NCBI GenBank assembly: GCA_964513645.1
Contig: CAZENF010000002.1
Location: 73,409 to 137,408 of the forward strand
Direction: 5' to 3'
DNA from: an uncultured Candidatus Saccharibacteria bacterium
Lineage (GTDB): Bacteria; Patescibacteriota; Minisyncoccia; 2-02-FULL-40-12; GWA2-44-9
Length of the DNA: 64,000 bases
A program made the position numbers and the translations under genes. Of this stretch, positions 716-62,190 are shown piece after piece. How positions within the stretch are numbered: the stretch's first letter is position 1; each line of letters starts with the position of its first letter. The notes below the pieces were generated by a model, which saw only the letters and a program-made list of their open reading frames with translations, searched no databases and had not been told where the DNA came from.

Positions 716-3700
716 CTATTTTGTAACTCCGATCCAAATCTTTTTCTGGGGCGCAAGCTCAAATTCTTTTTCAATGTCGTATTTTTTGTTCGCTGGGCCG
801 GACTCGAATTTTTCAAGCAAGACATCTTTCTTTATTTCTTCCGTCCATTGTTCAACCGCTTCGATTATATCTTTGTCTTCCGAATGCCAGTGACCAAGGA
901 CTTTCTCGTCTAAACGGTATTTGGCCTCTTTGCGCATATCCTGAAGCTGGCGCATCAACTCACGAGCATAACCTTCGTGGATGAGAGCTTTATCCAAAAC
1001 TGTATCAAAAGTTATTCCTGATTCCTGTTTGGCATCATAGGTCAGGCCCTTAACATTGAGTTCTTCTTTAACCAACGATTCGATATCTTTGCTGAACTTC
1101 GAAGTTCGTTTGGTAATTGCCGAACGCAAAGGTTGGCGAACCTTTAATTGTTTTTCCTTTCGTACGGCCAAACCAGAAGCGATGACATTTCTGGCTTCTT
1201 CCATTTCTTTTTCAAGTTTTACGTCAATAAGTTTTTTATCTGCTTTGGGCCAGTCTTCGAGATGAACCGATGTCTTGCTTTTTAAATTGTGAAATATCTC
1301 TTCAGAGACAAAAGGTGTAAAAGGAGCGATTAGCTTGGCCGTTTCGAGGATCAAAAATTTAAGCAACCCGAGAGCTTCTTTTCTTTTTCTCGAACGTCTT
1401 AACCACCAGTTAGAGAGGTCCTCGACTGTAAATTTTTCTATGGCTCGAGTAGCCGTCGTCGGGTCGTATTTATCAAGAGCGGTTGTTACTTCGGCAATCA
1501 GAACATTTAAACGGGAGATTATCCATTTATCAAGAAGGTTGGATGTTTTGGATGTATGGGTAAAATTCTTCGAACCTTCTCCGTATAGTTCATAAAATCT
1601 AACACAATTCTCAAGAGTCGAGATAAAACCTTTAAGTTTGGCTTCGACATCTTTCATCGCAAAAAGTTTATACTCCCCTGGCTGATTAAGGGTATAAAAA
1701 TACCAGCGGGCTGCATCGGCCCCGACTTTATCCATTACTTCAAAAGGTGAAACAACGTTGCCTTTGGATTTAGACATCTTCTTGCCTTTGTCATCGAGAA
1801 CATGACCAAGGGACATTACGTTCTTATACGACGATCCTTTGCCTAAAAGAGTTGAGATAGCCAAAAGGGTATAGAACCAGCCCCGGGTCTGGTCAACCGC
1901 CTCGACTATGAAATCCGCCGGGAACTGCTCCTCAAACATCTTCTTGTTTTCAAAAGGCCAATGCCACTGGGCATAAGGCATTGCACCGGAATCGAACCAG
2001 ACATCTATTAGATCCGCGATCTTTTTCATGGACGCCCCGCACTCATCACATTTGAGAGAAACGCTGTCGATGTAGGGTCGGTGAAGATCAAGCTCGCCTA
2101 TCTCGTTCCTTGGAATTTTCCGCCATTTCATTTCACCGCAAAAAGCAACTCCAGGATAATTATCCTTCCTGGCATTATCTTCTATCTCCCGCCCGGTCAT
2201 TCCTTTTCCCATGCATGTTAAAATCCACAACGGATCACCGTGACTGACGATCAGGATATTTTTACCGGAATATTTATTTTCCATTTCCTGCATAAAATCG
2301 GACATTCTCGTGCGAACATCGTTCCAGCTTTCACCAGTCACATGCGCCTTAAAATCAATCGTCCTTCTCAAATCTTCAACTGAACAAACCTTATGCGGCA
2401 AGCCGTCACAACTGCCATGACTTATCTCTCTTAATCTTTCGTCGGAAGTGACCTTAAGATGCAGGGTTTTAGAAACTATTTCCGCCGTCTCGGCAGTTCT
2501 CAAGAAAGGAGAGCTGAAAATAAGGTCGATGTCATAATTATTCTTTATCTTCTGGGCATTTCGCTCGGCCTGTTTTTCTCCTTCTTTGGTCAGGTGGTAT
2601 TTATCCAATTTCAGATCGGAACTGATTATCATTTTGCCAGCTTCGTCACGGGTAGTGTAACCGTGGCGCAGGACTATATACCTATTGTTCTTGACAGGGT
2701 CCGAAGCACTAAGTTTTTCCATTTCTTCGACCGAACCGACAACCTTAACATCTCCGCACTTCTGACATTTCCAGGCCGGTAAAGGCGTGCCCCAATAGCG
2801 TTCGCGAGAAAAAGCCCAATCCTTGCCCTCGGCCAACCATTGGCCGAAACGTCCTTCTTTTATATTTTCCGGTACCCAGTTTATTTTCTGATTGTTGGCC
2901 ATGATTTCTTTGTTGACCGCCGACATTTTAATGAACCAGGAATTTTTGGCGTAATACAAAAGCGGCGAATCACAGCGCCAGCAGAAAGGATAATCGTGCT
3001 CATACTCTTCTTCTTTGAAAAGGAGGTTATTTTTATTCAGATACTCGATTATCTTCGAGGTCGTTTTTTCTTCGGTCGGTTTGTCTTTGCTTTTTACCAG
3101 CATGCCGTCGAGATCCTGTCCGACCCCGGTAAACCTGCCCTGCTCATCAACCGTGTGAACTTTTGGCAGACCTAATTTAGTCCCGAGAACATAATCTTCT
3201 TCTCCATACATCACAGCGGTATGAACCACTCCCGTGCCGTCTTCGGTCGAAACAAAACCTGCTTCATAAACCTGGTATGAAGTATTTGACTTGAGCTCTT
3301 TGATATCGAAAAGCGGTTCATAAATTAAACCGGCGAGATCTTTGCCTTTAAATTCTCCAACGACCTCGTAATCACTGCCGAGAACTTTTTGGATGAGATC
3401 TTTGGCGATAACTAAATTTTCTGAAAATTTTCTGACCAGAACATAATCTATGTTTTTGCCGACTGCCAAGGCAACATTGCCGGGTAAAGTCCAAGGCGTG
3501 GTTGTCCAGGCGAGAATATAATCCCCTCTTTTCACATGTGAATTCCCGGTTTTAACTTTGAATTTTATGTAAACAGATTTTTCTTTTACTTTTTTGTAAC
3601 CCTGGGCCACCTCATGAGATGACAAGGATGTTCCGCAACGGACACAAAAAGGCACAACCTTGTGGGCCTGATAAAGAAGTTTTTTGTCCCAGATCTGGCG

Positions 3701-4168
3701 GATGATATGCCAAACGCTTTCTATATAGTTATTCTCATAGGTTATGTATGGATGGTCGAGGTCAAGCCAAAAACCCATTTTCCTGGTCATGTCTTCCCAT
3801 TCGGTCTTATATTTCCAGACACTCGCTTTAGCCTTCTTGTTGAATTTTCCTATTCCGTAATCTTCGATATCTTTCTTTTTCTTAAAACCAAGTTCTTTTT
3901 CTATTTCTATTTCGACGGGTAAGCCGTGCGTATCCCAACCGGCCTTACGCAAAACAAAAAAGCCCTGCATGGTCTTATAGCGACAGATAAGGTCCTTGAA
4001 AGCGCGAGCTAAAAGATGGTGGATGCCCGGCCGACCGTTGGCAGTCGGTGGTCCTTCAAAAAAAACGAACCTTTTGCCTTTCTTCCTGTTCTCTAATGAT
4101 TTTTGAAAAGTATCGTTATTGCGCCAAAATTCGAGTATTTTATGCTCTGTTCCTTTAAAATCGTACAT
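716..4168 (-). CDS. ileS: Isoleucine--tRNA ligase, type-2 (eukaryote/archaea-like), with a histidine-phosphatase-like insertion
   Basis: HIGH-type motif PGIHHLLARA, KMSKSKGN, a CP1 editing domain, and the type-2 signatures SRERYWGTPLP, C-x2-C, DLHRPYID and DVWFDSG. The track ORF extends to 4237, but the conserved N-terminus MYDFKGTEHKILEFW begins at the ATG 4166-4168. The upstream 69 nt is read-through of a hairpin element that re-creates an in-frame ATG at 4235-4237. Confidence 0.9.
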   Translation of the reverse strand: MYDFKGTEHKILEFWRNNDTFQKSLENRKKGKRFVFFEGPPTANGRPGIHHLLARAFKDLICRYKTMQGFFVLRKAGWDTHGLPVEIEIEKELGFKKKKDIEDYGIGKFNKKAKASVWKYKTEWEDMTRKMGFWLDLDHPYITYENNYIESVWHIIRQIWDKKLLYQAHKVVPFCVRCGTSLSSHEVAQGYKKVKEKSVYIKFKVKTGNSHVKRGDYILAWTTTPWTLPGNVALAVGKNIDYVLVRKFSENLVIAKDLIQKVLGSDYEVVGEFKGKDLAGLIYEPLFDIKELKSNTSYQVYEAGFVSTEDGTGVVHTAVMYGEEDYVLGTKLGLPKVHTVDEQGRFTGVGQDLDGMLVKSKDKPTEEKTTSKIIEYLNKNNLLFKEEEYEHDYPFCWRCDSPLLYYAKNSWFIKMSAVNKEIMANNQKINWVPENIKEGRFGQWLAEGKDWAFSRERYWGTPLPAWKCQKCGDVKVVGSVEEMEKLSASDPVKNNRYIVLRHGYTTRDEAGKMIISSDLKLDKYHLTKEGEKQAERNAQKIKNNYDIDLIFSSPFLRTAETAEIVSKTLHLKVTSDERLREISHGSCDGLPHKVCSVEDLRRTIDFKAHVTGESWNDVRTRMSDFMQEMENKYSGKNILIVSHGDPLWILTCMGKGMTGREIEDNARKDNYPGVAFCGEMKWRKIPRNEIGELDLHRPYIDSVSLKCDECGASMKKIADLIDVWFDSGAMPYAQWHWPFENKKMFEEQFPADFIVEAVDQTRGWFYTLLAISTLLGKGSSYKNVMSLGHVLDDKGKKMSKSKGNVVSPFEVMDKVGADAARWYFYTLNQPGEYKLFAMKDVEAKLKGFISTLENCVRFYELYGEGSKNFTHTSKTSNLLDKWIISRLNVLIAEVTTALDKYDPTTATRAIEKFTVEDLSNWWLRRSRKRKEALGLLKFLILETAKLIAPFTPFVSEEIFHNLKSKTSVHLEDWPKADKKLIDVKLEKEMEEARNVIASGLAVRKEKQLKVRQPLRSAITKRTSKFSKDIESLVKEELNVKGLTYDAKQESGITFDTVLDKALIHEGYARELMRQLQDMRKEAKYRLDEKVLGHWHSEDKDIIEAVEQWTEEIKKDVLLEKFESGPANKKYDIEKEFELAPQKKIWIGVTK

Positions 4169-4287
4169 CCCGTTAGAAGTAGCCCGCCCGAGGTCATTGA
4201 CCGCGTAAGCGCGGGCGAGACTTCTAACGGGATACATCCAATAATTATAAATTATCCAGAGGAAAATTCAACTAAAACCTGGACTAT

Positions 4288-5961
4288 TTACATCTTTTTT
4301 GGCGCCGAGATCCCCATCAGAGAAAGGCATTCGCCAATAACAATAGCTATCGCCGAACATAAAGCTACTCTGGCCTTTTCTATTTTTTTGTCATCCCCGC
4401 CTGCTCGCCTCGCTGAAGCATCGGCGGAGCGGACCGGCGAAGCAGGATTTACAACTCTATGTTTCTCATAAAAATTATGGAACTCCGAAGCCAGTTCAAA
4501 GGCATATTGAGCCAAGCGGTGGGCCTGATAGTTAAGAGCTATTTCTTCTATCAATTCCGGGAACTTTGACATTTTCCGCATCAACCCAAATTCTTCTTTT
4601 TCTTTCAAACCCTCGAACACAGAAGGGTCATTTTTGGGTCTAAGTTCAGTAAGGTTTAATTTTCCAAAAATACTGTTAAGCCGGGCGTTAGCATACTGAA
4701 TGTAATAGACTGGGTTCTTTTTCGATTCTTCCTTGGCCAAGTCAACATCAAATTCCATATGAGTATTGAGATCCTTGACCAGAAAAAAATACCGGACAGC
4801 ATCCTTGCCAACCTCTTTAAAAAGTTCATCCAAAAGAACGAACTCCCCTTTTCTTTTGGACATCTTTTGTTTTTCTCCTCCGGCTTTCAAGGAAACCAGC
4901 TGGTGGAGAAGTATCTCAAGTTTGCCGTCTTCGTAGCCCAAGGCTCTGACTCCGGCCTTTAAGCGGTGTACATCGCCGTGATGGTCGGTTCCCCAAATAT
5001 TTATCGCTTTTCCGAAACCACGAATAAATTTATTCCTGGTATAGGAAATGTCGGCCATAAGGTACGAGTAGGATTTGTCGCTTTTGACCAATACCGCATC
5101 GCGTTCACCTGAATCATCTATCTTTAGCCATTCCGCACCTTCTTTTTCATAAACATGCTCGCCTTTTTTGAGCATCTTTAAAGTGTTATCGATTTCGCCC
5201 GAGTCATATAATTTTTTCTCGGAGAACCAGGTATCAAAATCTATATTAAGTTTCGACAAAGAAGCTTTGGCGGAATCGATCATTTTTTTCAATGCAAACT
5301 CGCGGCAAACAGATGTCAGTTCGTCGAAATTCTCTATGTCTTTGACCAAACCCTTATCATCCATCTCTTTGGCGACATCGATGATATATTCTCCCTGGTA
5401 AAGATTGTCAGGAAAATCTATGGTTTTTCCTTTTAAGCGAAGGTAGCGGCGGGCAACTGATTCACCCAATAGCTTAACCTGGTTCCCGGCATCATTGATG
5501 TAATATTCTTTTGTTATCTCGTAGCCGTATTTTTTAAAGATTGCGGCCAGAGTATCACCGAAAGCTGCCGCCCGGATGTTAGCAACCGTTAAGGGACCGG
5601 TGGGGTTGGCAGAAACAAATTCAAGATTTATGCTTAATTTTTTATTTTCTCCTGAACCATAATTTTCTTTTTGTTCCAGTATCTTAACCAGTTCTTGCCT
5701 TAAAAAATCTTCAGATAAGTAAAAATTAACAAAACCGTCGGCGGGTTCTATTTTGCTGAAATATTTGCTTAATTCTTTATTTTCTAAAAATTCTTCAGCT
5801 AAACGACCAGCTACATCCTTAGGATGCTGTTTCTCTTTTTTAGCCAATACAAAAGCAAGATTTATGGAATAATCCCCCATTTCATTGTTTGGCGGGGTCA
5901 GAACATCAAAATCAACACCAGGATAGAGTTCTTTAATCTTGTTTTCTATCCACATTTTCAT
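4288..5961 (-). CDS. argS: Arginine--tRNA ligase
   Basis: Arg_tRNA_synt_N-like N-terminus, core NPTGPL motif and a C-terminal DALR-type anticodon-binding end (…LSLMGISAPKKM). KMSKRKG is present. The HIGH position reads TVAN instead of H-x-G-H. A C-terminal in-frame insert lies at 4391-4446. Confidence 0.9.
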   Translation of the reverse strand: MKMWIENKIKELYPGVDFDVLTPPNNEMGDYSINLAFVLAKKEKQHPKDVAGRLAEEFLENKELSKYFSKIEPADGFVNFYLSEDFLRQELVKILEQKENYGSGENKKLSINLEFVSANPTGPLTVANIRAAAFGDTLAAIFKKYGYEITKEYYINDAGNQVKLLGESVARRYLRLKGKTIDFPDNLYQGEYIIDVAKEMDDKGLVKDIENFDELTSVCREFALKKMIDSAKASLSKLNIDFDTWFSEKKLYDSGEIDNTLKMLKKGEHVYEKEGAEWLKIDDSGERDAVLVKSDKSYSYLMADISYTRNKFIRGFGKAINIWGTDHHGDVHRLKAGVRALGYEDGKLEILLHQLVSLKAGGEKQKMSKRKGEFVLLDELFKEVGKDAVRYFFLVKDLNTHMEFDVDLAKEESKKNPVYYIQYANARLNSIFGKLNLTELRPKNDPSVFEGLKEKEEFGLMRKMSKFPELIEEIALNYQAHRLAQYAFELASEFHNFYEKHRVVNPASPVRSADASARRAGGDDKKIEKARVALCSAIAIVIGECLSLMGISAPKKM

Positions 5962-6011
5962 GTTTTTATCTTATCACCTTCATCTAAAAACAAAAAATCC
6001 TTAAGTCTTGC

Positions 6012-6710
6012 TTAAGGATTTTTACCTATCTTCTTTTTGGTGTTGCCTATTTCTAAATCTCCTAATCTTTCGACGACCACATCCAAACAAATGATACTGC
6101 AGCTTTCAATTTTTAACTTTTTGATTAACTTTAATTGGATCTCCTTTAAAACTTTTTCATCGGGTTTGTTCAGCTTAGAAAACAATCTTGAAACAGCATT
6201 GGTAACCTTTTTTCGATACTGAAGATCGTAGCATCCGGCAACAAATATCTTTGCTTCCGAATCATTTTCCTGATCTTCATCAGTAAAAAAATGATAATCT
6301 CCAGTAAAATAGATCACTACCAGCCGACCAAGAATATCAACGATGGCAAACTCAGCGGCTAAACCTCGAGCCGTATCCTTGTCCTCAAGGTCGATTTTCA
6401 TCAACCTGGCCAAATCATCTCTCAAAATCGTGCAATGAACATCATAAGAAGAGAAGGTGGTTGCCCAACTCGACACTATCCTTCTCACATTTCTTACACC
6501 TTCAGCAATATCTCCCGAAGAACCACCTGTAACTATTGCCGCGAAGTTGGGGCTCCGATATAAACCGGCCATTTCATCTCCGCCGGCTATCAAAAAATTA
6601 GTTCCATTAACCTTGACGCAACAAATGAAGTTTTTCTTCAATCTTGCCCGAACATTATTTTTTTTATTCTCAAATTCGTTGACCAGACTAAGCCCTTGGT
6701 TTTTAGACAT
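6012..6710 (-). CDS. Proteasome-like (Ntn-hydrolase fold) subunit lacking catalytic Thr; putative alpha-type or inactive partner
   Basis: NFICCVKVNGTNFLIAGGDE…GSSGDIAEGVRNVRR matches the proteasome-subunit pattern (G.T.VGIK..DGVVLA.D…G..AD), but CC replaces the Thr1 position. The start is chosen at the internal M (MSKNQGL), giving an 8 nt overlap with the upstream gene. The track ORF extends to 6785. Confidence 0.45.
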   Translation of the reverse strand: MSKNQGLSLVNEFENKKNNVRARLKKNFICCVKVNGTNFLIAGGDEMAGLYRSPNFAAIVTGGSSGDIAEGVRNVRRIVSSWATTFSSYDVHCTILRDDLARLMKIDLEDKDTARGLAAEFAIVDILGRLVVIYFTGDYHFFTDEDQENDSEAKIFVAGCYDLQYRKKVTNAVSRLFSKLNKPDEKVLKEIQLKLIKKLKIESCSIICLDVVVERLGDLEIGNTKKKIGKNP

Positions 6711-7476
6711 TGTCGCCTCGTTTCCCTTTAAAAAGTTTCGCTCGAATTGTTTCGAGGGTCTTATTTTCGACATTTTTAAAACCACCCGTAACGGTGATGG
6801 TTGCCACCGAAGGTAAGACTGAAGATAAAGGAGAAACTCCGCTCTCCCATTTTCCAGATTTATAGAGAGCTTCTAAGGCGATGAAAATCGCACTTTTGAG
6901 ATTGAGGGATCTACTATTAATTTCCTGCCTATAGTCTTCCATGACTTGGAGAGCTTCAAAAGTACCCGAACCGACAGCACTATATTCTCTCTCTTCTTTA
7001 CAACCATCTTCCCAAATATCAAAAATTTGATAAGTCCCAAAAAAATTAAGACCACAAATGATCATCTCGGTCATCAAGGGTATTCCATAGTAACAGTAGT
7101 CGCGGAGAAGATCTGCGACATAATTTGCCTGGCCTTCGATGGTCAAAGGCACACCTGATCTCTCCATAAACGTAAGGTTTATTTGTTGAAGAATGGATTT
7201 TATGTACTGCGCATCGCTGACCGAACCGGCACAGCCAACCCCGGTAAACATAGCGACCTGATCGATTTTGACCGTTTCATCGCTCATAATTTTATGGCCA
7301 AAAGACGTTCTCCTGTCTCCGGCGATTAAAACGCCATCTTCAAATTTAAGAGCAATGATGGTTGTCCCCTTTTTTCGGTCCATTTCCTTGGACCCGGAAC
7401 TACCCTTAAATCTCTGAATTGATTTTTGGGGCAAGGAAGATTTAAGGATCTGATCTATAATTCTTTCCCTATTCAC
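6703..7476 (-). CDS. 20S proteasome beta-type subunit with a 36-aa propeptide and intact catalytic residues
   Basis: …KKG|TTIIALKFEDGVLIAGDRRTSFGHKIMSDETVK: cleavage after G would expose Thr1, with Asp17 and Lys33 at exactly canonical spacing. A downstream GSG motif (AVGSGTFEA) is present. Length 257 aa. Confidence 0.7.
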   Translation of the reverse strand: MNRERIIDQILKSSLPQKSIQRFKGSSGSKEMDRKKGTTIIALKFEDGVLIAGDRRTSFGHKIMSDETVKIDQVAMFTGVGCAGSVSDAQYIKSILQQINLTFMERSGVPLTIEGQANYVADLLRDYCYYGIPLMTEMIICGLNFFGTYQIFDIWEDGCKEEREYSAVGSGTFEALQVMEDYRQEINSRSLNLKSAIFIALEALYKSGKWESGVSPLSSVLPSVATITVTGGFKNVENKTLETIRAKLFKGKRGDNV

Positions 7477-7594
7477 AGGTTTTCCTTTTCAATGAAACTG
7501 GTAGATAGATTAACATTAACGCCCTCAATGTCAAAGCCAAGATAGTTGCTCCAGGTCTATTGAAAAGTTGCACGTTTAGCCTCATAATATAAGT

Positions 7595-8629
7595 ATGAAT
7601 TCACAAGAATATGACAAGGTAATAATTGAGGCGGTAAAAAAGGTTGCTGACTCGGTTGTCAGCATAGTTATCTCAAAAAACCTGCCCAAAATTAAAAGCA
7701 TGTACCAGGCTCCGTTCATGAGCCCTTTTATGTTCGGCGAGGCAGAAGGCGGAACGGAAAAAGTAAAGGTTGGCGGCGGCTCTGGATTTGTCGTCCACCC
7801 GGAAGGTCTTATCCTGACCAACAAGCACGTGGTTTTCGATACTGATGCGGAATACACTGTGCTTACGACCGATGGAAAAGAATATGTAGCCAAAGTCCTG
7901 TCTCGTGACCCGATAAACGATATTGCCGTATTAAAAATAGCCGCAACCGGAATGCCGGCAGTCCGCCTTGGAAACTCGGTTAAACTTGAACTCGGCCAAA
8001 CTGTAGTCGCCATCGGCAATGCTCTGGGTCTTTTTTCAAACACCGTCTCAAAGGGCATTGTTTCCGGATTATCAAGAAAAATTTCCGCTTCCCTCGGCAC
8101 CGGCGGACAGATGGAACACTTGCGCGGTGTCATCCAGACGGATGTAGCGATCAACCAGGGCAATTCAGGCGGTCCGCTGATTAACGTCGAGGGTGAAGTT
8201 GTCGGTATTAATACCGCGATAATTTTCGGCGCCCAGAACATCGGCTTTTCAATTCCCATCAACTGGGCCAAGGAGGATCTGGAAGATATCATCAAGCATG
8301 GCCGAATCATCAAGCCTTTCATCGGTCTTCAGTATGTAATGCTTGGCAAAGAACTTCAGAAAAAATATTCCCTGCCCGTCGACTACGGCGCTTTGGTTGT
8401 TCGAGACCATGTGCCTGGTTCGTTGGCAGTTGTTCCCGATTCCCCTGCCGCTAAAGCCGGTATCCGGGAAAACGACATCATCACTGCTTTAAACAATGAG
8501 AAATTGACCGAAGAGAAAGACCTTCGGGATATGATACAGAAATGCGGCGTCGACGATGAAATAGACCTCACGGTTCTGCGCAAGAACGAAACTCTCAATC
8601 TCAAAACCAAACTGGTCGAGCGTAAATAA
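7595..8629 (+). CDS. HtrA/DegP-family (S1C) trypsin-like serine protease with C-terminal PDZ domain
   Basis: The TNKHVV (His), D, and GNSGGPL (Ser) catalytic-triad context, followed by a PDZ-like region (…GALVVRDHVPGSLAVVPDSPAAKAGIRENDII…). Confidence 0.85.
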   Translation: MNSQEYDKVIIEAVKKVADSVVSIVISKNLPKIKSMYQAPFMSPFMFGEAEGGTEKVKVGGGSGFVVHPEGLILTNKHVVFDTDAEYTVLTTDGKEYVAKVLSRDPINDIAVLKIAATGMPAVRLGNSVKLELGQTVVAIGNALGLFSNTVSKGIVSGLSRKISASLGTGGQMEHLRGVIQTDVAINQGNSGGPLINVEGEVVGINTAIIFGAQNIGFSIPINWAKEDLEDIIKHGRIIKPFIGLQYVMLGKELQKKYSLPVDYGALVVRDHVPGSLAVVPDSPAAKAGIRENDIITALNNEKLTEEKDLRDMIQKCGVDDEIDLTVLRKNETLNLKTKLVERK

Positions 8630-8635
8630 ACGCTC

Positions 8636-9079
8636 ATGAGCGACTACGCCTCAAACCCAAAAGCCAATTTTGACTATGACATCCTCGAGACAATTGAGGC
8701 CGGGATTGTTTTAGAAGGACACGAAGTAAAATCTGTCAAAACCGGCAAGGCCTCGATAAAAGGTTCCTACGTTAAAATATTAAACGAAGAAGCATATCTT
8801 ATCGGCGCAACCATCTCCCCTTACCAGCCGGCCAATACTCCTCAAAACTACGATCCCCAGCGTTCGAGAAAATTATTATTATCCCGCAAAGAAATATCCG
8901 AACTTATCGGCACTTCGCAAGCCAAAGGCACGACCTTGGTACCCCTAAAACTCTACGGCAAAAAAGGTCTTGTAAAACTCCTCGTCGGTATCGCCCGCGG
9001 CAAGAAAAAATACGACAAACGCGAGACCATCAAGAAAAAAGACATCGCCCGCTCAAAACAGAGAGGACTTGAGAATTAA
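8636..9079 (+). CDS. smpB: SsrA-binding protein SmpB
   Basis: Typical SmpB length (147 aa) and sequence pattern (…IEAGIVLEGHEVKS…YLIGATISPY…). Its cognate tmRNA lies immediately downstream. Confidence 0.9.
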   Translation: MSDYASNPKANFDYDILETIEAGIVLEGHEVKSVKTGKASIKGSYVKILNEEAYLIGATISPYQPANTPQNYDPQRSRKLLLSRKEISELIGTSQAKGTTLVPLKLYGKKGLVKLLVGIARGKKKYDKRETIKKKDIARSKQRGLEN

Positions 9080-9098
9080 CTGTTTTTGTGGTATAATC
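9069..9098 (+). promoter_or_regulatory. Candidate sigma70-type promoter for tmRNA (TTGAGA-N18-TATAAT)
   Basis: TATAAT at 9093-9098 lies 7 nt upstream of the tmRNA 5' end GGGGATGACGGG at 9106. A -35-like TTGAGA is at 9069-9074. Confidence 0.4.
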
Positions 9099-9105
9099 TG
9101 GAAAT

Positions 9106-9455
9106 GGGGATGACGGGATTCGACAAGGTTCGTTCCAAATTATCTGCAAGTAATGGATGGGTATCACCATTTAAATCATTATCCAAATTCATAATTGCCA
9201 AAAACAATTATTCATCTGCTTTAGCTTTTGCTTAACAGACGTTCTCTCATTGATTCTCGCTATTTGAAGAGGGCGCCATCAGCGGGATACTGTTTGCGGG
9301 GTCTTGGTGAGTTCTAAGCCGTAGATAGGAAAATTAATTAGAATTCTGGCTTGGCATTTTTGCTAATTTCAAAGCCGAGCAATAAAAAATTAGCTAAACT
9401 TGTAGACTATAATTTGATAAAACTTTGCACGGCGGTTCAACTCTGCCCATCTCCA
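9106..9455 (+). ncRNA. ssrA: tmRNA (ssrA), with predicted tag peptide (A)KNNYSSALAFA
   Basis: The 5' end GGGGATGACGGGATTCGACAAGG is an acceptor/tRNA-like start. An internal ORF GCC AAA AAC AAT TAT TCA TCT GCT TTA GCT TTT GCT TAA runs 9197-9235. The 3' end has a T-arm GGCGG-TTCAACT-CTGCC, then CATCTCC pairing with the 5' GGGGATG, and discriminator A at 9455. No CCA is encoded. The gene sits directly after smpB. Confidence 0.7.
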
Positions 9456-9465
9456 CTTTTGAAAA

Positions 9466-10051: not shown

Positions 10052-10774
10052 TTATTTAAAATATTTCTCCCAGAAATCTGGGCATTTAATTTTGAGTTTT
10101 ATAACTTCGTCTGTAGTTGCAGTTCGGAATTCTATTTCCGTCGCGCAAAGCGCGACGGAGTTGTCTTGAGTTTTTTCTTTACTGCCGTATTTTGAATCCC
10201 CGACTAAGGGATGCCCGGTGTGCGAAAATTGCGCTCTTATCTGATGGAATCTGCCGGTTATAAGTTTTATTTTCAGTAGAGAATAATTTTTATTTGATCT
10301 CACGACCTCGTATTCAAGTTCCGACATTTCATAATTTTCTTTGGCCGAATCCGAAACCGATGCCTTTCGGATGTTCTCATTCTTTGCCAGATAATGAATA
10401 AGTTTTCCTTTTTTCGACTCTAACTCTCCTTCGGCAACGGCATAATATATTTTTTGTATTTCGTTATCTCTGAATTGTTCAGATAATCTTGAAGCACCTT
10501 TTGAAGTTTTACCGAAAAGCACTATACCTGATACGTTCCGGTCGAGACGATGAACAAGGCCGAGAAACACGTTCCCGGGCTTTTTATATTTTTGTTTAAG
10601 ATATTCCTTAACCTTGTCGAGCAGACTCTTATCCCCGGTTTTGTCTCCCCCGTCTGCTCGCCTCGCTGAGGCTTCGCCGGATCGAGACAACGAGGCAGGC
10701 TGAACAAGTAAACCAGCCGGCTTATACACCGCAATTATGTGGTTATCTTCGTAGAGTATATTTAATTTAGACAT
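10052..10774 (-). CDS. RluA-family pseudouridine synthase
   Basis: VYKPAGLLVQ…LVHRLDRNVSGIVLFGKT contains the catalytic Asp motif HRLDxxTSG. An 18-aa in-frame insert (PASLSRSGEASARRADGGD) is encoded by the GC-rich element at 10644-10699. Confidence 0.8.
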   Translation of the reverse strand: MSKLNILYEDNHIIAVYKPAGLLVQPASLSRSGEASARRADGGDKTGDKSLLDKVKEYLKQKYKKPGNVFLGLVHRLDRNVSGIVLFGKTSKGASRLSEQFRDNEIQKIYYAVAEGELESKKGKLIHYLAKNENIRKASVSDSAKENYEMSELEYEVVRSNKNYSLLKIKLITGRFHQIRAQFSHTGHPLVGDSKYGSKEKTQDNSVALCATEIEFRTATTDEVIKLKIKCPDFWEKYFK

Positions 10775-12516: not shown

Positions 12517-12526
12517 TAAAACATTA

Positions 12527-12979
12527 TTAACGAGTAACAGATATAGGCGTGGTGATCTCGGCTCCAGGAGCGTCGACAGTTATTCTGCCTCCGCCTGCCG
12601 CTTGCATTATCCTGTATCCGGTATCGGCCGCCGTTCCTGTTGAGGGGTCCATGACCATGGTTGAAACATAGGTCGGGACGATGCATGAAGCAAGGTCAAT
12701 GTTGCCGGCTCCTGAACCGACTGCGGTCAAGGCAGCAGGCAATGTGACGGTTACAGCACCGCAGGTTGAACTCCAGACTCCTTTGTTATCAACCATTCTT
12801 TGCCAAACACCATTTAAAATAGTGTTGACGTTGGAAACTCTCTGGGTATCGCGGGCTTGGGCAAACTGTCTGGCCGGGTTCAAAGCAACGATAACCACGG
12901 CTGCCAAGATGGCGATAATACCGATAACGACCAAAATTTCTATAAGGGTGAATCCTGACTGTTTATTGTAATTTTTCAT
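12527..12979 (-). CDS. Type IV major pilin (PilA-like), copy 1
   Basis: N-terminal class III signal QSGFTLIEILVVIGIIAILAAVV (G|FTLIE prepilin cleavage and N-methylation motif). Confidence 0.8.
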   Translation of the reverse strand: MKNYNKQSGFTLIEILVVIGIIAILAAVVIVALNPARQFAQARDTQRVSNVNTILNGVWQRMVDNKGVWSSTCGAVTVTLPAALTAVGSGAGNIDLASCIVPTYVSTMVMDPSTGTAADTGYRIMQAAGGGRITVDAPGAEITTPISVTR

Positions 12980-13107
12980 TTGCGAAATGATTTAAAATGA
13001 TTTTGTTTAAAGACACTATCCGCTCAAGCGCTTTCGAGCAGATAATCGACCTCCAGTAGTAATTGTAACACCGAAAAATCATATAACTAAGATCGTTATC
13101 AACAAAA

Positions 13108-13137
13108 CTAAAACGTCCCAATCGGGGCGTTTTAGTT
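13108..13137 (-). terminator. Rho-independent terminator downstream of pilin copy 2
   Basis: aaaacgtccc-aatc-ggggcgtttt plus T-run. Confidence 0.5.
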
Positions 13138-13151
13138 TTATAAGAGAGATA

Positions 13152-13604
13152 TTACCTGGTAACAGTTATCGGGGTGGTAATTTCAGCACTCGGTGCATCA
13201 ACGGTAATTCTACCGCCTCCGGCCGCTTGCATAATACGGTAGCCGGTGTTAGCCGCCGTTCCTGTTGAGGGGTCCATGACCATGGTTGAAACATAGGTCG
13301 GGACGATGCATGAAGCAAGGTCAATGTTGCCGGCTCCTGAACCGACTGCGGTCAAGGCAGCAGGCAATGTGACGGTTACAGCACCGCAGGTTGAACTCCA
13401 GACTCCTTTGTTATCAACCATTCTTTGCCAAACACCATTTAAAATAGTGTTGACGTTGGAAACTCTCTGGGTATCGCGGGCTTGGGCAAACTGTCTGGCC
13501 GGGTTCAAAGCAACGATAACCACGGCTGCCAAGATGGCGATAATACCGATAACGACCAAAATTTCTATAAGGGTGAATCCTGACTGTTTATTGTAATTTT
13601 TCAT
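13152..13604 (-). CDS. Type IV major pilin, copy 2 (tandem duplicate)
   Basis: Identical to copy 1 except for 3 aa (D/N, G/S, S/T). The 625 bp duplicated unit includes the upstream region. Confidence 0.8.
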   Translation of the reverse strand: MKNYNKQSGFTLIEILVVIGIIAILAAVVIVALNPARQFAQARDTQRVSNVNTILNGVWQRMVDNKGVWSSTCGAVTVTLPAALTAVGSGAGNIDLASCIVPTYVSTMVMDPSTGTAANTGYRIMQAAGGGRITVDAPSAEITTPITVTR

Positions 13605-15167: not shown

Positions 15168-15816
15168 TTCGCAGATTTCTTATTAATACGGTGTTCGAAT
15201 AATCAGTACGGCTTTTTGTGTCTCCCGGAGTAGGGTCGACTGTGACAGTTATCTTCACCAGGCGGATCTGGTTAACATTGATCGGCGAAGGCATCGCTGT
15301 CTGCGTTCCGGTATAATTCGGGTCATAGTAAGTAAACAGGGACTGGCTTGCGACCGGCGCCAAAATTACATTATGAACAACATCTGTAAGTACTTCGTTC
15401 GCCGGATTATAGACCGCGGGATTTCCGGTCGGCTTGGTCAATCCTCTGGTCAAAGTTGTGCCTGAAACATAATATCTTACCCTCGAAAAAACACCGCTCC
15501 CGTCAACATCGCTGTAAAAAGTAAATGATTTTGATGAGGCCGACTCGATCGTATAGCTTCCGTTGGCGGAGGGCCCCATTCCTCTCATTTCAATTCCCAT
15601 ATTGCTCAAAGTTAAGCTGACCTCTTGCTGTTCGACAAATGACTGTCCTAAGAATATCTGAAGATTAAAAACGTTATAGCCGAAATAGCTGATAACAAAG
15701 ATCAGACCTGAGAGAATTGCCATCACAATAAGTATCTCAAGCAAAGTAAAACCCCGGCTTATAAATATTCTTGACCTGAAAAATTTAAAAATTTTTAAAT
15801 TAATTTTTTCTGTCAT
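15157..15816 (-). CDS. Minor pilin / pseudopilin with prepilin-type N-terminal domain
   Basis: RGFTLLEILIVMAIL motif. The start is chosen at M12, whose ATG overlaps the upstream stop (TAATG). The track ORF extends to 15849. Confidence 0.6.
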   Translation of the reverse strand: MTEKINLKIFKFFRSRIFISRGFTLLEILIVMAILSGLIFVISYFGYNVFNLQIFLGQSFVEQQEVSLTLSNMGIEMRGMGPSANGSYTIESASSKSFTFYSDVDGSGVFSRVRYYVSGTTLTRGLTKPTGNPAVYNPANEVLTDVVHNVILAPVASQSLFTYYDPNYTGTQTAMPSPINVNQIRLVKITVTVDPTPGDTKSRTDYSNTVLIRNLRNVQ

Positions 15817-17579
15817 TAAGGTGAAAGTGTTGCTCTGTATTCCTGCCAACCGTTAGAAATGGTTACGGGTACAGACATGTCCTGATATCCTGACTTGTGA
15901 AGAGTTAGGGTGTAATTGCCGTTGCTTAAGCCGTTGAAAAATGTCTGGCCATTAGGCAGACAAGTTGAACTGAAATTAACTGTTAGGTCGCTGATAGACG
16001 GCGTAATCGCTTGGTTATCGGTTCTAAGAATAACTTGGTATCGAAGATACCTGTTTCCATTATGAATCGCGTTCATCTGGACATCGCTGACCGTGTAGTA
16101 TGTAGAAGCGGTCCCGTCAGGCCCGACGAAATTCCAGGTTGCATTGTCATTATTTGTTGCGAGCTGGATCTTCAAGCTTGTCTGGGCAGGTTGAGAGAAG
16201 GTAAAAGATAAATTATAAAAATTCGTACTGGAAGTGCCGAAATCTATCGTGTTGGAGTTCAGCCATTCATCGCTTGAAGACGCATATTTGCCGTTTATAA
16301 GCTTGAGCGTTAACTGACCGACCGGACTATCGGCTTCGAGGTTAGTACTCTTGGCACTGTATTTACCGGCTGACCAGTCCGTATCAGTAGTCAAGTTCCG
16401 TCCGGTATATTTCTGGCTTGAAAATCCGCTTTTAGCCAAGGTGGCCGAAACGTCATTTATCCTTTGTCCGGAAGCGTCTTGAGCAGTAACCGAAAGAGAA
16501 GATTGGTTTTTAGGTTCCAGCATCCAGGCAACACTGAAATTACTGTTGGGATTGACAGTGAACGGCGACAAGAAAGAGGTCCCAGCTAAGTCGTAGTTTG
16601 CATCGGTATTCTGCAAAGTATAATTATCCCACTCGAGGTTTGTAGATCTATTTCCACTGACATCCGTCGTGTCACTGACTGAATACTTGAGAACGTTGGG
16701 TCCGGAACCGATCAATTTTGCCCCCTGTTCGGTGAAGTGAATAGCCGGTACAGCCTGACAGAATTTATTTTTGGTCGTAAGTGTCTGGGTGCTTAGTCGG
16801 TCAATGGCGAGAGTTAACAGTGTAACCTGATGACTGACGACTGTTGCATGCGGTTTCACCGGATTAGGGTTTGGCGGATCACCCGGTTTATAAGTCTTGT
16901 CTGTTGAATAGCCGGCCTTAGTGATGGTCACCTGATAGTTAAGAGAACTCGTGGCGATATCAACCAGCTGGAGCTGGCCATTGTTATTCGTAACGTCAGT
17001 AATGTTTATCGCCGGATTAACTGCATTGTTTACGACAGTCACGTTGGCTTGTGCTATCGGGTTGCCTGAAGCATCGATCGCATTCACAAAAAGATCGCCG
17101 TTTTTGGATGAACCTTCAAGATTGGCCGGACCGACATAAGTCGTAGTCGTTATGGGTTTAAAATTCGGACAGTTCTGACAAGTTAACGTAAGCTCAACTA
17201 ATTTGTAGTCGGCCGGAGCAATATCGTTCGGGACTCCGCCCAAAACTCCGTCGAAAGGATCGTCTATATTCCTGACCGTAGTATTTAAAACGAACTTAAA
17301 ACCGGATGTATTTATATTTTGCTGACCTGGAATTATTCCTGCCGGCGCTCCTCCTTGAATACCGATATCCTGATACTTGATGTTTCTTATAACTTCGAGC
17401 TGATTAGAAATAACCGTCAGACCGGTCGCACTCAACTGGGAAGCAACAGTAATATCTATTACACTTTGATAAGCCGAGTATATCGCCGAGGATACGATCG
17501 CAAATATTGCAATCGCAACCAGAGCCTCGACGAGGGTAAATCCTTTCTGACCATTTTTAATATTTAAATATTTGAACAT
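15816..17579 (-). CDS. Large minor pilin with prepilin-type N-terminus
   Basis: KGFTLVEALVAIAIFAIV motif, 587 aa, with a beta-rich Thr/Asn-rich ectodomain. Confidence 0.6.
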   Translation of the reverse strand: MFKYLNIKNGQKGFTLVEALVAIAIFAIVSSAIYSAYQSVIDITVASQLSATGLTVISNQLEVIRNIKYQDIGIQGGAPAGIIPGQQNINTSGFKFVLNTTVRNIDDPFDGVLGGVPNDIAPADYKLVELTLTCQNCPNFKPITTTTYVGPANLEGSSKNGDLFVNAIDASGNPIAQANVTVVNNAVNPAINITDVTNNNGQLQLVDIATSSLNYQVTITKAGYSTDKTYKPGDPPNPNPVKPHATVVSHQVTLLTLAIDRLSTQTLTTKNKFCQAVPAIHFTEQGAKLIGSGPNVLKYSVSDTTDVSGNRSTNLEWDNYTLQNTDANYDLAGTSFLSPFTVNPNSNFSVAWMLEPKNQSSLSVTAQDASGQRINDVSATLAKSGFSSQKYTGRNLTTDTDWSAGKYSAKSTNLEADSPVGQLTLKLINGKYASSSDEWLNSNTIDFGTSSTNFYNLSFTFSQPAQTSLKIQLATNNDNATWNFVGPDGTASTYYTVSDVQMNAIHNGNRYLRYQVILRTDNQAITPSISDLTVNFSSTCLPNGQTFFNGLSNGNYTLTLHKSGYQDMSVPVTISNGWQEYRATLSP

Positions 17580-17588
17580 TTAAATATG

Positions 17589-18659
17589 CTACCGTCCGAG
17601 AGTTTGAGTTATCTTGTATATCGGAGTAATAATGGCTAAAGCCACGAAAGCAACGATCATGCCCATCACCAGCAAAAGCAGTGGTTCCAGAACGTTCGAA
17701 ATAGATTTAGTGGTCTCATCGAGTTCTGATTCATAATAATCAGCCAGAAAGAGTATCGACTCGTCCAATTTGCCGGTATTTTCACCGACCAGTATCATCT
17801 GGGAAAATATCGGCGGAAAAAGTTTCGGGTTCTGGGTAAAATATTTCGACATTGGGTCTCCCTTTCTGACCCCTTCCGATATTTTCAGCAGTTCTCTTCT
17901 ATAAACCAGATTGGACAAGGTACTGGCTGTTATTTCAAGAGACTCGACTATTTTAATTCCTGATTTAAGGAGTAGACCGATAGTTCTTGAGAAGCTGATA
18001 ATATTTACTGACCGCACCATGTCTCCGATTAAGGGAATGGATATAAGTATTACATGCCAGACATACCTTATCTTCTCAACCCTTAAGAGAAGCCAGAAGG
18101 CGACAAGCATGGCAACTATACCGACTCCAACCAGGTAGCCGTAATGGATAAGAAATTGTGAAATTGCAATGAAGGCCAGAGTAGTTACCGGCAGGTCAAC
18201 ATGCAAGCTGGTCAGAACCGGTAATATCTTCGGAAAAATTACAAAGATCATTACCGAGGTGATCCCGACCGTGGCCACAAAAATAACTACCGGATAAGCC
18301 ATTGCCCCTTTTATCTTCTTCTGGAGCTCGTCTCTTTTTTTTAATTCCTCATATAAATATTTAAGGTTCTCGCTTAAGGTTCCCGAGGCTTCCCCTACTC
18401 GGATAAGATTGATGAAAAAATCTCCGAAAACATTCCGGTAGCGTTCAAGGCCGGCTGAAAGAAAGTGCCCGTTCTTAATATCAAGTATCAGCTGGTCAAG
18501 AATTTTGATAAAAGTCCTGGAGCGTGATTGTTTTTTTAATATCTCTAAGCTTTGAAGTATCTGCATGCCCGAACGCATCATCACCTCAAGATTCCTGGCA
18601 AAAAGCATTTTATCCTTATTCGAAAGCCGGAAAAAAAAATTTTTCAGATTAAATTTCAT
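17589..18659 (-). CDS. pilC: Type IV pilus platform protein PilC/GspF family
   Basis: T2SSF-domain pattern (FARNLEVMMRSGMQILQSLEIL…) with 3 predicted TM segments. At 356 aa it is shorter than the usual two-domain PilC. Confidence 0.75.
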   Translation of the reverse strand: MKFNLKNFFFRLSNKDKMLFARNLEVMMRSGMQILQSLEILKKQSRSRTFIKILDQLILDIKNGHFLSAGLERYRNVFGDFFINLIRVGEASGTLSENLKYLYEELKKRDELQKKIKGAMAYPVVIFVATVGITSVMIFVIFPKILPVLTSLHVDLPVTTLAFIAISQFLIHYGYLVGVGIVAMLVAFWLLLRVEKIRYVWHVILISIPLIGDMVRSVNIISFSRTIGLLLKSGIKIVESLEITASTLSNLVYRRELLKISEGVRKGDPMSKYFTQNPKLFPPIFSQMILVGENTGKLDESILFLADYYESELDETTKSISNVLEPLLLLVMGMIVAFVALAIITPIYKITQTLGR

Positions 18660-18662
18660 ATT

Positions 18663-35004: not shown

Positions 35005-35130
35005 GCCAATAGACCCGTCTTGACTCGGTCGATCCGAGGCGGACCCGTCTCGCCAAAGGCGAAGCCGAGGCGGAGAACACTGGAAAACTTTGTTACTGGA
35101 TATCTATAGTTATTTTATCAGAAACCCGCA
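35005..35130. repeat. Composite GC-rich intergenic repeat, copy A
   Basis: Shares gccaatagacccgtcttgactcggtcgatccgaggcggaccc(g/a)tctcgccaaaggc… with copy B. Shares gagaacactggaaaactttgtt…ctatagttattttat with copy C. Internal palindrome ctcggtcgatccgag. Confidence 0.7.
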
Positions 35131-35635: not shown

Positions 35636-35681
35636 TCCGTTATTAAAACAAAAACTGGATTTAATTACCAGTTTTATCGGG

Positions 35682-35865
35682 CCAATAGACCCGTCTTGAC
35701 TCGGTCGATCCGAGGCGGACCCATCTCGCCAAAGGCCAGCTTCAACCCAATGAGACAAGCGAAGCCGAGGCGGAGAACACTGCCTGCCCGCCAAAGCCTT
35801 GGCGTAGGCGGGGAAAACTTTGTTAATACGGATTCATACATATTGTATTAGAAATCCATTGAATA
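35682..35865. repeat. Composite GC-rich intergenic repeat, copy B
   Basis: Same modules as copy A, plus an inserted block cctgcccgccaaagccttggc that is the reverse complement of a block in copy C. Confidence 0.7.
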
Positions 35866-36763: not shown

Positions 36764-36880
36764 GACCCCGCCTGTGCCAAGGCTTTGGCGGGCAGGCATT
36801 CTCCTTGAGCAGGGCCAATAGAGAACACTGGAAAACTTTGTTCCGGGAGCTCTATAGTTATTTTATTAGGAATCCCTTTG
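36764..36880. repeat. Composite GC-rich intergenic repeat, copy C
   Basis: gccaaggctttggcgggcagg…gggccaatagagaacactggaaaactttgtt…ctatagttattttat. Confidence 0.7.
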
Positions 36881-62138: not shown

Positions 62139-62163
62139 CTACCTTGTTCTGCTCCAATATATC

Positions 62164-62188: not shown

Positions 62189-62190
62189 AC

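What the first reader, a model, noticed from the sequence alone, without database searches (positions are those of the whole stretch)
6012..7476. Two-gene 20S-proteasome-like pair (active beta with propeptide, plus Thr-less partner) in a reduced, CPR-like genome
Gene 6703-7476 has a 36-aa propeptide ending in Gly, followed by TTIIALKFEDGVLIAGD…TVK. This puts Thr1, Asp17 and Lys33 at exactly the canonical 20S beta positions, with the downstream GSG motif. The next gene (6012-6710, 8 nt overlap) has the same fold pattern but CC in place of Thr1, as an alpha-type or inactive subunit would. The beta-then-alpha order matches actinobacterial prcB-prcA. No Pup, ARC/Mpa or HslU is adjacent. A self-compartmentalised protease of this type is unexpected outside Actinobacteria and a few other lineages. 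It may mark horizontal acquisition or an undescribed proteasome homolog family.
Basis: partly seen in the sequence, partly recalled or inferred. Interest (0 to 1): 0.7.

Follow-up and report, generated by a model that had tools for sequence, protein, structure and literature searches.

The report
Divergent two-subunit proteasome in Patescibacteria
Two overlapping genes in this candidate-phyla-radiation bacterium encode an apparently active proteasome beta subunit and a very diverged, catalytically dead alpha-like partner. They look like a stripped-down 20S-type protease core, in a group where I found no published report of one, and no tagging or unfolding machinery lies nearby.

Summary
Gene 1 (6703-7476, minus strand) is a PF00227 protein (E=2e-28). 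It has a 37-residue propeptide ending in Gly, with Thr1, Asp17, Lys33 and GSG at the canonical positions. Its best matches are 20S beta subunits, not HslV, Anbu or BPH.

The pair recurs in about 30 distinct Patescibacteria loci, always as smpB-htrA <> beta-partner-argS. No Pup, Dop/PafA or AAA+ gene lies in any flank.

The beta subunits score far below both the bacterial and the archaeal beta equivalog cut-offs.

I read this as a lineage-specific, PrcB/PrcA-like 20S core with an extremely diverged alpha subunit. Assembly, activity and substrate delivery are inferred, not shown. I found no paper describing it. Rating: new variant of a known kind, interest about 0.6.

The parts
6703..7476 (-). 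Gene 1: proteasome beta-type subunit precursor, 257 aa.
   Evidence: PF00227 at E=2.3e-28. The top PDB hits are 20S beta subunits. Thr1, Asp17, Lys33 and GSG are invariant in the family.
7366..7476 (-). Propeptide, residues 1-37, ending in Gly37. The Thr1 codon lies at 7363-7365.
   Evidence: The alignment with PrcB precursors places G37|T38 at the processing site. Pro16 in an (L/I/V)P motif is conserved in all seven family betas and in two of three PrcB propeptides. Autoprocessing itself is inferred.
6012..6710 (-). Gene 2: catalytically inactive, alpha-like proteasome-fold partner, 232 aa.
6703..6710 (-). 8-nt overlap, ATGTCTAA, between the gene 1 stop and the gene 2 start. A GAGG ribosome-binding site lies at 6716-6719.
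   Evidence: Read directly from the sequence. The same small overlap or abutment is seen in related loci.
7477..7594 (.). Divergent intergenic region shared with htrA. It holds the AAGGAAA ribosome-binding site (7481-7487) for gene 1 and presumably the promoter of the pair.
   Evidence: Sequence. The consensus scan found only a plus-strand promoter-like site here. The promoter for the pair is inferred.
5993..6023 (-). Terminator-like hairpin with a 13-bp stem and a T tract, at the end of gene 2.
   Evidence: Consensus scan. Function not shown.
7595..8629 (+). Conserved divergent neighbour: HtrA/DegP-type serine protease with a PDZ domain.
   Evidence: Pfam Trypsin_2 plus PDZ. It is adjacent to the pair in nearly all related loci.
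8636..9458 (+). Conserved neighbours: smpB (8636-9079) and tmRNA (9106-9458, tag AKNNYSSALAFA).
   Evidence: Rfam tmRNA at 129.8 bits. ARAGORN. SmpB is conserved next to htrA in related loci.
4288..5961 (-). Conserved downstream neighbour: arginyl-tRNA synthetase.
   Evidence: It follows the partner gene in every related locus that is long enough to show it.

Best explanation
The two genes form a bicistronic, translationally coupled operon. It encodes the core of a divergent bacterial-type (PrcB/PrcA-like) 20S proteasome that is specific to a clade of Patescibacteria (Parcubacteria/Paceibacteria, near Ca. Yanofskybacteria).

Gene 1 is the catalytic beta subunit. It is made as a precursor with a 37-residue propeptide. 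On assembly it is expected to cleave itself at Gly37|Thr38, exposing the Thr1 nucleophile, which works with Asp17 and Lys33.

Gene 2 is a very diverged alpha-type subunit. It keeps the proteasome alpha/beta sandwich and an N-terminal helix but has no nucleophile. It is expected to form the outer rings of an alpha7-beta7-beta7-alpha7 barrel, scaffolding beta-ring assembly and controlling entry.

The system lacks the Pup/Dop/PafA/Mpa module that accompanied the three canonical bacterial proteasome operons recovered here. Substrates, probably unfolded or damaged proteins, are most likely admitted without tagging. Entry could be ATP-independent or use an unlinked ATPase.

Shown here: family membership of the beta subunit, active-site conservation, the predicted fold and alpha-like affinity of the partner, strict co-occurrence and synteny, and absence of linked accessory genes.

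Inferred: autoprocessing, 28-mer stoichiometry, proteolytic activity, substrates and gating.
For: Beta subunit:
- PF00227 at E=2e-28.
- The best PDB matches are Rhodococcus, M. tuberculosis and archaeal beta subunits.
- Thr1, Asp17, Lys33 and GSG are invariant across seven family members.

Partner:
- Exhaustive phmmer finds 25 representatives of a 210-245-aa family.
- The AF2 model built from that alignment has pLDDT 87.4.
- Foldseek gives E about 1e-8 to chains I read as alpha subunits.
- hhalign of the 31-sequence partner profile against PrcA gives Prob 64% and E=6.7e-5 over 99 columns. Partner residues D90, E120, G137 and G159 fall on PrcA-invariant D92, E120, G142 and G154.
- The same profile against PrcB gives Prob 0.3%.
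- Divergent family members reach PF00227 directly. The L019 partner scores 21.9 bits and the second ORF of L024 scores 22.7 bits, against a 22.4-bit cut-off.

Linkage and distribution:
- The 8-nt overlap, the ribosome-binding sites and the terminator-like hairpin support one transcription unit.
- The beta-partner pair is adjacent in all 9 Patescibacteria genome loci that carry window-type pairs.
- It is adjacent in 19 of 27 metagenome loci and in all 7 family members looked up by contig.
- Canonical PrcB loci show the same beta-then-alpha order.
Against: - No experimental or multimer-model evidence shows that the two proteins assemble.
- The window's own partner protein has no significant sequence hit to any proteasome family.
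- The beta subunits score far below both equivalog cut-offs. They reach 75-100 bits against 224 for archaeal beta and 40-83 bits against 192 for bacterial beta.
- In my reading of the alignment, the window beta has Glu at the position aligning with Asp166 and Val at the Ser/Thr169-equivalent position.
- Gly-1 is replaced by Lys or Gln in two family members.
- No unfoldase or activator was identified, and whole genomes could not be examined.
Confidence: 0.72

Rival explanations
1. The partner is not an alpha-ring subunit. It is an inactive beta-type paralogue or another structural partner. The complex would then be a two-ring or mixed-ring particle without a separate gating ring, as in HslV, Anbu or BPH, or as with the inactive eukaryotic beta subunits.
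Confidence: 0.15
2. The pair was taken from archaea, for example from archaeal hosts of these episymbionts, and is not of bacterial PrcB/PrcA descent. The alpha gene then diverged rapidly.
For: All seven CPR beta subunits score slightly higher against the archaeal beta model than against the bacterial one. The family profile's top PDB hits are archaeal betas from 6he5/1j2q and 3h4p, which I recall as A. fulgidus and M. jannaschii, at 99-109 bits. Rhodococcus scores 98 and M. tuberculosis 81.5. Ca. Yanofskybacteria are reported as symbionts of methanogens (PMC9600506, listed).
Against: The partner aligns with bacterial PrcA, but no archaeal alpha profile was available for comparison. The long propeptide carries an (L/I/V)P motif shared with PrcB. 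The adjacent beta-then-alpha order with overlap is the bacterial arrangement. From my own knowledge, archaeal psmA and psmB are usually unlinked. Deep divergence inside the CPR family (27-63% beta identity), together with fixed synteny, argues for long vertical residence. This rival concerns origin only and is compatible with the proposed mechanism.
Confidence: 0.2
3. The beta protein works alone as a homo-oligomeric HslV-like peptidase. The downstream gene has an unrelated function and is linked only by synteny.
For: The window's partner has no sequence-family hit. Synteny in this region, including argS and ileS, is conserved generally.
Against: The partner has a confident proteasome fold. 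The genes overlap by 8 nt. The two genes stay adjacent even in the second type of locus, which sits in a different context next to uvrC. The HslV models score poorly, at 28.6 bits or less against a 137-bit cut-off. From my own knowledge, HslV also has no propeptide.
Confidence: 0.05

Closest known systems
Bacterial 20S proteasome core PrcB/PrcA (Actinobacteria; also Nitrospirae, NC10, Acidobacteria and others)
   Same: - An adjacent beta-then-alpha gene pair.
- A beta precursor with a long propeptide containing an (L/I/V)P motif.
- Thr1, Asp17, Lys33 and GSG.
   Different: - No Pup, Dop/PafA or Mpa/ARC gene lies nearby, whereas all three canonical loci recovered here have them.
- The beta scores 40-83 bits against a 192-bit cut-off for TIGR03690.
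- The window's partner gets no TIGR03691 or PF00227 hit.
- Beta identity to PrcB is only 26-30%.
Archaeal 20S proteasome PsmA/PsmB
   Same: The beta profile's highest PDB and NCBIfam scores are to archaeal beta subunits. It is a simple one-alpha, one-beta composition with no pupylation.
   Different: - Scores of 75-100 bits lie far below the 224-bit equivalog cut-off.
- The propeptide is long, and the genes are linked and overlapping. Short propeptides and unlinked genes in archaea are from my own knowledge.
- No PAN- or Cdc48-type ATPase lies nearby.
HslV, Anbu, BPH and the 22 homolog families of Fuchs, Alva and Lupas 2021 (PMC8665760)
   Same: They belong to the same Ntn-hydrolase proteasome-like superfamily. 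Like the new families in that census, this one is rare and lineage-restricted.
   Different: - Those proteins were described as individual families, not as an active/inactive pair. That is my reading plus my own knowledge of HslV, Anbu and BPH; 'operon' has no hits in the paper.
- HslV models score 29 bits or less.
- Anbu, HslV and BPH structures rank below alpha and beta subunits for the partner.
- That paper does not mention CPR, Patescibacteria or Candidatus lineages.

Membership tests
Proteasome family T1 / Pfam PF00227 (gene 1) | Score above the Pfam gathering threshold | tested here: met
   99.6 bits against a 22.4-bit cut-off, E=2.3e-28, covering profile positions 2-175 of 189.
Active 20S beta subunit (gene 1) | A propeptide ending at Gly-1, followed by the Thr1 nucleophile, with Asp17 and Lys33 | tested here: met
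   G37|T38, D54 and K70 are at exactly the canonical spacing. T, D and K are invariant in 7 family members plus 3 PrcB. Gly-1 is Lys or Gln in two distant members.
Active 20S beta subunit (gene 1) | The Ser129/Gly130 (GSG) and Asp166/Ser169 structural residues | tested here: inconclusive
   GSG is invariant. In my reading of the alignment, the window has Glu at the Asp166-equivalent column and Val at the Ser/Thr169-equivalent column, where most relatives have D and T/S. The alignment in this region is uncertain.
Bacterial proteasome beta PrcB (NCBIfam TIGR03690, equivalog) | Score above the curated cut-off of 191.9 bits | tested here: not met
   The window scores 83.2 bits and six relatives score 40-76 bits.
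Archaeal proteasome beta (NCBIfam TIGR03634, equivalog) | Score above the curated cut-off of 224 bits | tested here: not met
   The window scores 85.5 bits and relatives score 75-100 bits.
20S alpha subunit (gene 2) | Sequence membership: PF00227, or TIGR03691 / TIGR03633 | tested here: not met
   The window protein has no hit, and none of 26 family members hit PF00227. Only divergent relatives reach it: 21.9 bits for L019 and 22.7 bits for L024, against a 22.4-bit cut-off. hhalign of the family against PrcA gives E=6.7e-5 and Prob 64%.
20S alpha subunit (gene 2) | The proteasome alpha/beta-sandwich fold with an extra N-terminal helix (H0) and no Thr1 nucleophile | tested here: met
20S proteasome complex | Assembly into an alpha7-beta7-beta7-alpha7 barrel with autoprocessing of the beta subunit | not testable with these tools
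   Only monomer prediction was available. Adjacency and co-occurrence are indirect evidence.
Pup-proteasome system | Pup, Dop/PafA (PF03136) and Mpa/ARC AAA+ genes linked to prcBA | tested here: not met
   They are present in canonical loci L002-L004. None was found among the window ORFs scanned. No AAA+-like P-loop ORF lies in the flanks of about 40 related loci. Whole genomes were not examined, and Pup-sized ORFs were not scanned.
HslVU | An HslV equivalog score, no propeptide, and an adjacent hslU | tested here: not met
   28.6 bits against a 137-bit cut-off. A 37-residue propeptide is present. No hslU was found in the window.
Anbu / BPH | Closest structural or sequence match to Anbu or BPH | tested here: not met

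The most novel reading that the evidence does not exclude
Patescibacteria carry their own ancient, vertically inherited lineage of alpha/beta 20S proteasomes. At least two types exist: this one, next to htrA-smpB, and a second next to uvrC. The lineage is equidistant from archaeal and actinobacterial proteasomes and works with no Pup system and no dedicated AAA+ unfoldase. That would mean the two-subunit 20S architecture was present deep in Bacteria, rather than being confined to Actinobacteria and spread from there by transfer. It would also supply a minimal, activator-free proteasome for study.
Probability: 0.25. Interest if true: 0.8.

Novelty: new variant of a known kind. Interest (0 to 1): 0.6.

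Why it matters
Bacterial proteasomes are usually described as restricted to Actinobacteria, Nitrospirae and a few Gram-negative groups thought to have gained them by transfer (PMC5666114). All three canonical loci recovered here also carry the pupylation and Mpa machinery.

A conserved alpha/beta pair in genome-reduced, episymbiotic Patescibacteria, without that machinery, matters in three ways:
- It adds a deep-branching bacterial lineage to the debate on proteasome origin.
- It shows that an alpha-type subunit can diverge beyond the reach of every current sequence model while keeping its fold. Genome annotation will therefore report a lone 'beta subunit' plus a hypothetical protein.
- It offers a small, possibly activator-independent 20S core, which is a tractable target for structural and biochemical work on gating and assembly.

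Its fixed position next to htrA, smpB and tmRNA hints at a protein quality-control role in organisms with few proteases. That role is inferred from synteny only.

Tried and rejected
Searches that gave nothing for the partner:
- A word-index homolog search found only the protein itself.
- The single-sequence AF2 model was unusable, at pLDDT 39.
- Profile HMM searches of the partner family against PDB sequences found no proteasome.
- A Pfam scan of 26 family members gave no consistent hit.
- hhalign of the partner against PrcB-type alignments was non-significant.

Locus searches that failed:
- With a 2-sequence alignment it found nothing in GTDB genomes. I replaced it with a hand-built degenerate DNA pattern.
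- The afdb50 fold library was unavailable.

Readings tested and not supported:
- Phage or defence origin: the only PHROG hit is a weak 'HslV family' match for gene 1, and PADLOC gives none.
- HslV, Anbu or BPH identity.
- A link between the ThiF-like E1 gene at 25-26 kb and ubiquitin-like tagging. That gene is one half of a split Rv1355c-type protein, next to an Acg nitroreductase and a PaaK-like ligase. The SAMP-E1 model scores only 23 bits against a 450-bit cut-off.

Literature: searches for proteasome together with CPR, Patescibacteria, Parcubacteria or Yanofskybacteria returned nothing relevant.

Full report
**1. Observation**

Both ORFs are on the minus strand at the stated coordinates.

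Gene 1 (6703-7476) starts at GTG 7476, seven bases after AAGGAAA. It encodes 257 aa. Residues 1-37 end in Gly37 and are followed by T38-T39. D54 and K70 fall at mature positions 17 and 33, and GSG is at 169-171.

Gene 2 starts at ATG 6710 after GAGG. It overlaps the gene 1 stop in ATGTCTAA, an 8-nt overlap. A terminator-like hairpin with a 13-bp stem and a T tract spans 6023-5993, at the end of gene 2. The two genes therefore look like one translationally coupled unit. It is transcribed divergently from htrA across a 118-bp spacer.

**2. Gene 1 is a 20S-type beta subunit**

- Pfam PF00227 scores 99.6 bits, E=2.3e-28.
- The best solved-structure matches are Rhodococcus beta (64 bits), an archaeal beta (63 bits) and M. 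tuberculosis PrcB (58 bits). The alignment to the Rhodococcus precursor runs through the processing site.
- Among NCBIfam models, archaeal beta scores 85.5 bits and bacterial beta 83.2 bits. HslV scores only 28.6 bits.
- Both beta scores are far below the curated equivalog cut-offs of 224 and 191.9 bits. Six relatives behave the same way: 75-100 bits for archaeal beta and 40-76 bits for bacterial beta.
- A profile of seven family members ranks archaeal betas first in the PDB (99-109 bits). Rhodococcus follows at 98, eukaryotic beta5 at about 93 and M. tuberculosis at 81.5. No HslV, Anbu or BPH appears among the 60 hits listed.
- Thr1, Thr2, Asp17, Lys33 and GSG are invariant across the seven family members and three canonical PrcB.
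- The propeptide carries a conserved (L/I/V)P motif (Pro16) that is also present in PrcB propeptides.

Two caveats apply. Gly-1 is Lys or Gln in two distant members. In my reading of the same alignment, the window has Glu and Val at the Asp166- and Ser169-equivalent columns.

**3. Gene 2 is a proteasome-fold, alpha-like, inactive partner**

By sequence it is close to an orphan. It has no Pfam, NCBIfam or PDB hit. The word-index search finds only the protein itself.

An exhaustive phmmer search of 1.84 billion representatives finds 25 relatives of 144-245 aa, most of them 204-245 aa. None of 26 members hits PF00227. Sources that name them call them 'hypothetical protein'.

The single-sequence AF2 model failed at pLDDT 39. 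With the 26-sequence alignment the model reaches pLDDT 87.4 and pTM 0.82. Its secondary-structure order is helix 9-23, four strands, two long helices, four strands, two helices, then a strand.

| Comparison for the partner | Result |
|---|---|
| Foldseek, PDB | E about 1e-8, probability 1.00; top hits are mostly proteasome A/G chains and M. tuberculosis chains of alpha length, which I read as alpha subunits |
| hhalign, 31-sequence partner profile vs 20 bacterial PrcA | Prob 63.8%, E=6.7e-5, 99 columns in structural register |
| hhalign, same profile vs CPR beta | Prob 16%, E=1.5e-3 |
| hhalign, same profile vs PrcB | Prob 0.3% |

Sequence bridges exist as well:
- The L019 partner is a clear member of this family (hmmsearch E=2e-14). 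It hits PF00227 at 21.9 bits.
- The second ORF of locus L024 hits PF00227 at 22.7 bits. The cut-off is 22.4 bits.
- In the PrcA alignment, the partner's near-invariant D90, E120, G137 and G159 fall on PrcA-invariant D92, E120, G142 and G154.

The Cys residues are not conserved, and they sit three or four residues after the Thr1-equivalent column in the non-significant alignments.

**4. Conservation and distribution**

Contig look-ups for seven family members, down to 24% partner identity, all show a PF00227 gene immediately followed by the partner and then argS. htrA is usually divergent upstream, sometimes with a 3-methyladenine glycosylase gene in between. An ileS carrying a His_Phos_1 insertion lies downstream.

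I built a degenerate DNA pattern for the beta active-site region. It matches every family locus it was designed for and none of the canonical PrcB loci.

In 185,579 GTDB species genomes the pattern found 11 loci:
- Ca. Yanofskybacteria, three loci
- Ca. Paceibacterota, three loci
- 'Patescibacteria group', two loci
- Ca. Roizmanbacteria, one locus
- Ca. Saccharibacteria, one locus
- the archaeon Nanobdella, one locus

Nine of these carry the window-type beta-partner pair. The tenth bacterial locus, L024, carries a second-type pair.

In JGI metagenomes the pattern found 27 loci, mostly from groundwater. Nineteen have the window-type pair. Five more are truncated at the pair, and most of those have htrA next to the beta gene. 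The rest are two eukaryote-like betas (L027 and L031) and one canonical Pup locus (L039).

Within the family, beta identity to the window ranges from 27% to 63%. That is as distant as canonical PrcB at 26-30%, yet the synteny is fixed. This points to long vertical residence in a Parcubacteria/Paceibacteria clade rather than recent transfer.

A second type of pair sits next to uvrC (L024=L036 and L033; L030 has the beta gene but is cut before any partner). Its partner is more recognisable, and in L033 a ClpP-like gene lies upstream.

The window's own genome is not among the GTDB representatives. Its placement in Patescibacteria therefore rests on these relatives, and NCBI phylum labels for MAGs may be imprecise.

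**5. Missing accessory machinery**

Canonical relatives at about 30% identity lie in mpa-dop-pup-prcB-prcA-pafA loci. In the 64-kb window the only ORFs with a Walker A motif are a PilB-type ATPase and a chance match in the RluA-like gene. Pfam scans of about 30 ORFs found no AAA+, Pup-ligase or HslU domain. Several mid-size ORFs and all Pup-sized ORFs were not scanned.

In the flanks of about 40 related loci, the only P-loop ORFs of 250 aa or more are a UvrA-like ORF and three motif matches in an RluA-like ORF, an IleRS and one unidentified ORF. I take the last three as chance or unrelated; they were not checked against Pfam. Whole genomes could not be examined.

**6. Mechanism**

Shown:
- a beta precursor with a complete catalytic set
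- a partner with a proteasome fold and alpha affinity
- strict genetic coupling of the two genes

Inferred from established 20S biology:
- The partner forms outer heptameric rings that template beta-ring assembly.
- Half-proteasomes dimerise and beta cleaves itself at Gly37|Thr38.
- The chamber degrades unfolded polypeptides.

With no linked unfoldase or tag system, entry is most likely ATP-independent or served by an unlinked ATPase. The conserved neighbours htrA, smpB and tmRNA (tag AKNNYSSALAFA) suggest a protein quality-control setting. That is synteny, not evidence of function.

**7. Comparison and novelty**

The closest known system is the bacterial PrcB/PrcA core. The pair works like it on current evidence but fails the equivalog tests for both subunits and lacks pupylation. 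It is not HslV, Anbu or BPH.

Reviews of the family state that bacterial proteasomes occur in Actinobacteria and Nitrospirae, plus Armatimonadetes and Verrucomicrobia (PMC5666114). The 2021 census of 22 new homolog families does not mention CPR lineages (PMC8665760). Six literature searches found nothing linking proteasomes to CPR (passage check). Absence from this library is not proof of novelty.

I rate it a new variant of a known kind, with interest about 0.6.

Noticed in passing
window 716-4237 (-): The isoleucyl-tRNA synthetase is 1173 aa. It carries a complete histidine-phosphatase domain (His_Phos_1, residues 521-683, E=5e-34) inserted inside the catalytic domain. The same fusion is present in related loci L007 and L011, so it is a conserved lineage feature and not an assembly artefact.
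   Followed up: partly
window 4386-4454 and 10639-10707: A GC-rich, hairpin-forming element of about 69 nt (77% identical copies; predicted folds of -27.6 and -28.8 kcal/mol for the 81-nt stretches around the copies) is inserted in frame in two unrelated genes. The genes are argS (adding 'PASPVRSADASARRAGG') and an RluA-type pseudouridine synthase. All eight ArgRS homologs from related loci lack the insertion. From my own knowledge, this resembles the palindromic elements that insert into coding regions in Rickettsia.
   Followed up: yes
window 35005-35060 / 35681-35736, 35059-35082 / 35759-35782, 35774-35813 / 36766-36805: Further GC-rich direct and inverted repeats (88-100% identical) cluster in a 2-kb stretch with few convincing ORFs. 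They may be related to the element above, or they may be a small mobile or structured-RNA region.
   Followed up: no
window 7595-9458 (+): htrA (Trypsin_2 plus PDZ), smpB and tmRNA (tag AKNNYSSALAFA) sit directly beside the proteasome pair. They form a compact protein quality-control neighbourhood that is conserved across the family.
   Followed up: partly
window 23524-27030 (-): Three overlapping or abutting genes lie here. They are a PaaK-like adenylating ligase (weak hit), a ThiF-type E1-like protein matching the N-terminal half of the 'Rv1355c family' model (290 bits), and an Acg-type FMN nitroreductase matching the other half. This is a split Rv1355c-type system of unknown role. It is not a SAMP/ubiquitin-like E1, whose model scores 23 bits against a 450-bit cut-off.
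   Followed up: partly
window 12525-13604 (-) and 15816-20411 (-): Two tandem 150-aa ORFs with near-identical pilin-like N-termini share a 300-nt repeat that is 91% identical. They were not scanned against Pfam. They lie next to a type IV pilus/T2SS set: an N_methyl-motif (pilin-like) protein, a T2SSF protein, and a PilB-type ATPase fused to an N-terminal response-regulator receiver domain.
   Followed up: no
window 62001-64000: GC content rises to 0.56, against about 0.43 elsewhere. The region is covered by a 603-aa ORF that runs off the window end and has no Pfam hit. No Rfam family matches there. It may be foreign or unusual DNA.
   Followed up: no
L024 (=L036) 5157-6615; L033 3592-6056; L030 908-1753 (beta gene only, contig ends before any partner): A second type of Patescibacteria beta/alpha-like pair lies next to uvrC instead of htrA/argS. 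Its partner is longer or more canonical: the L024 ORF reaches PF00227 at 22.7 bits. In L033 a ClpP-like gene (PF00574, E=2e-16) lies immediately upstream.
   Followed up: partly
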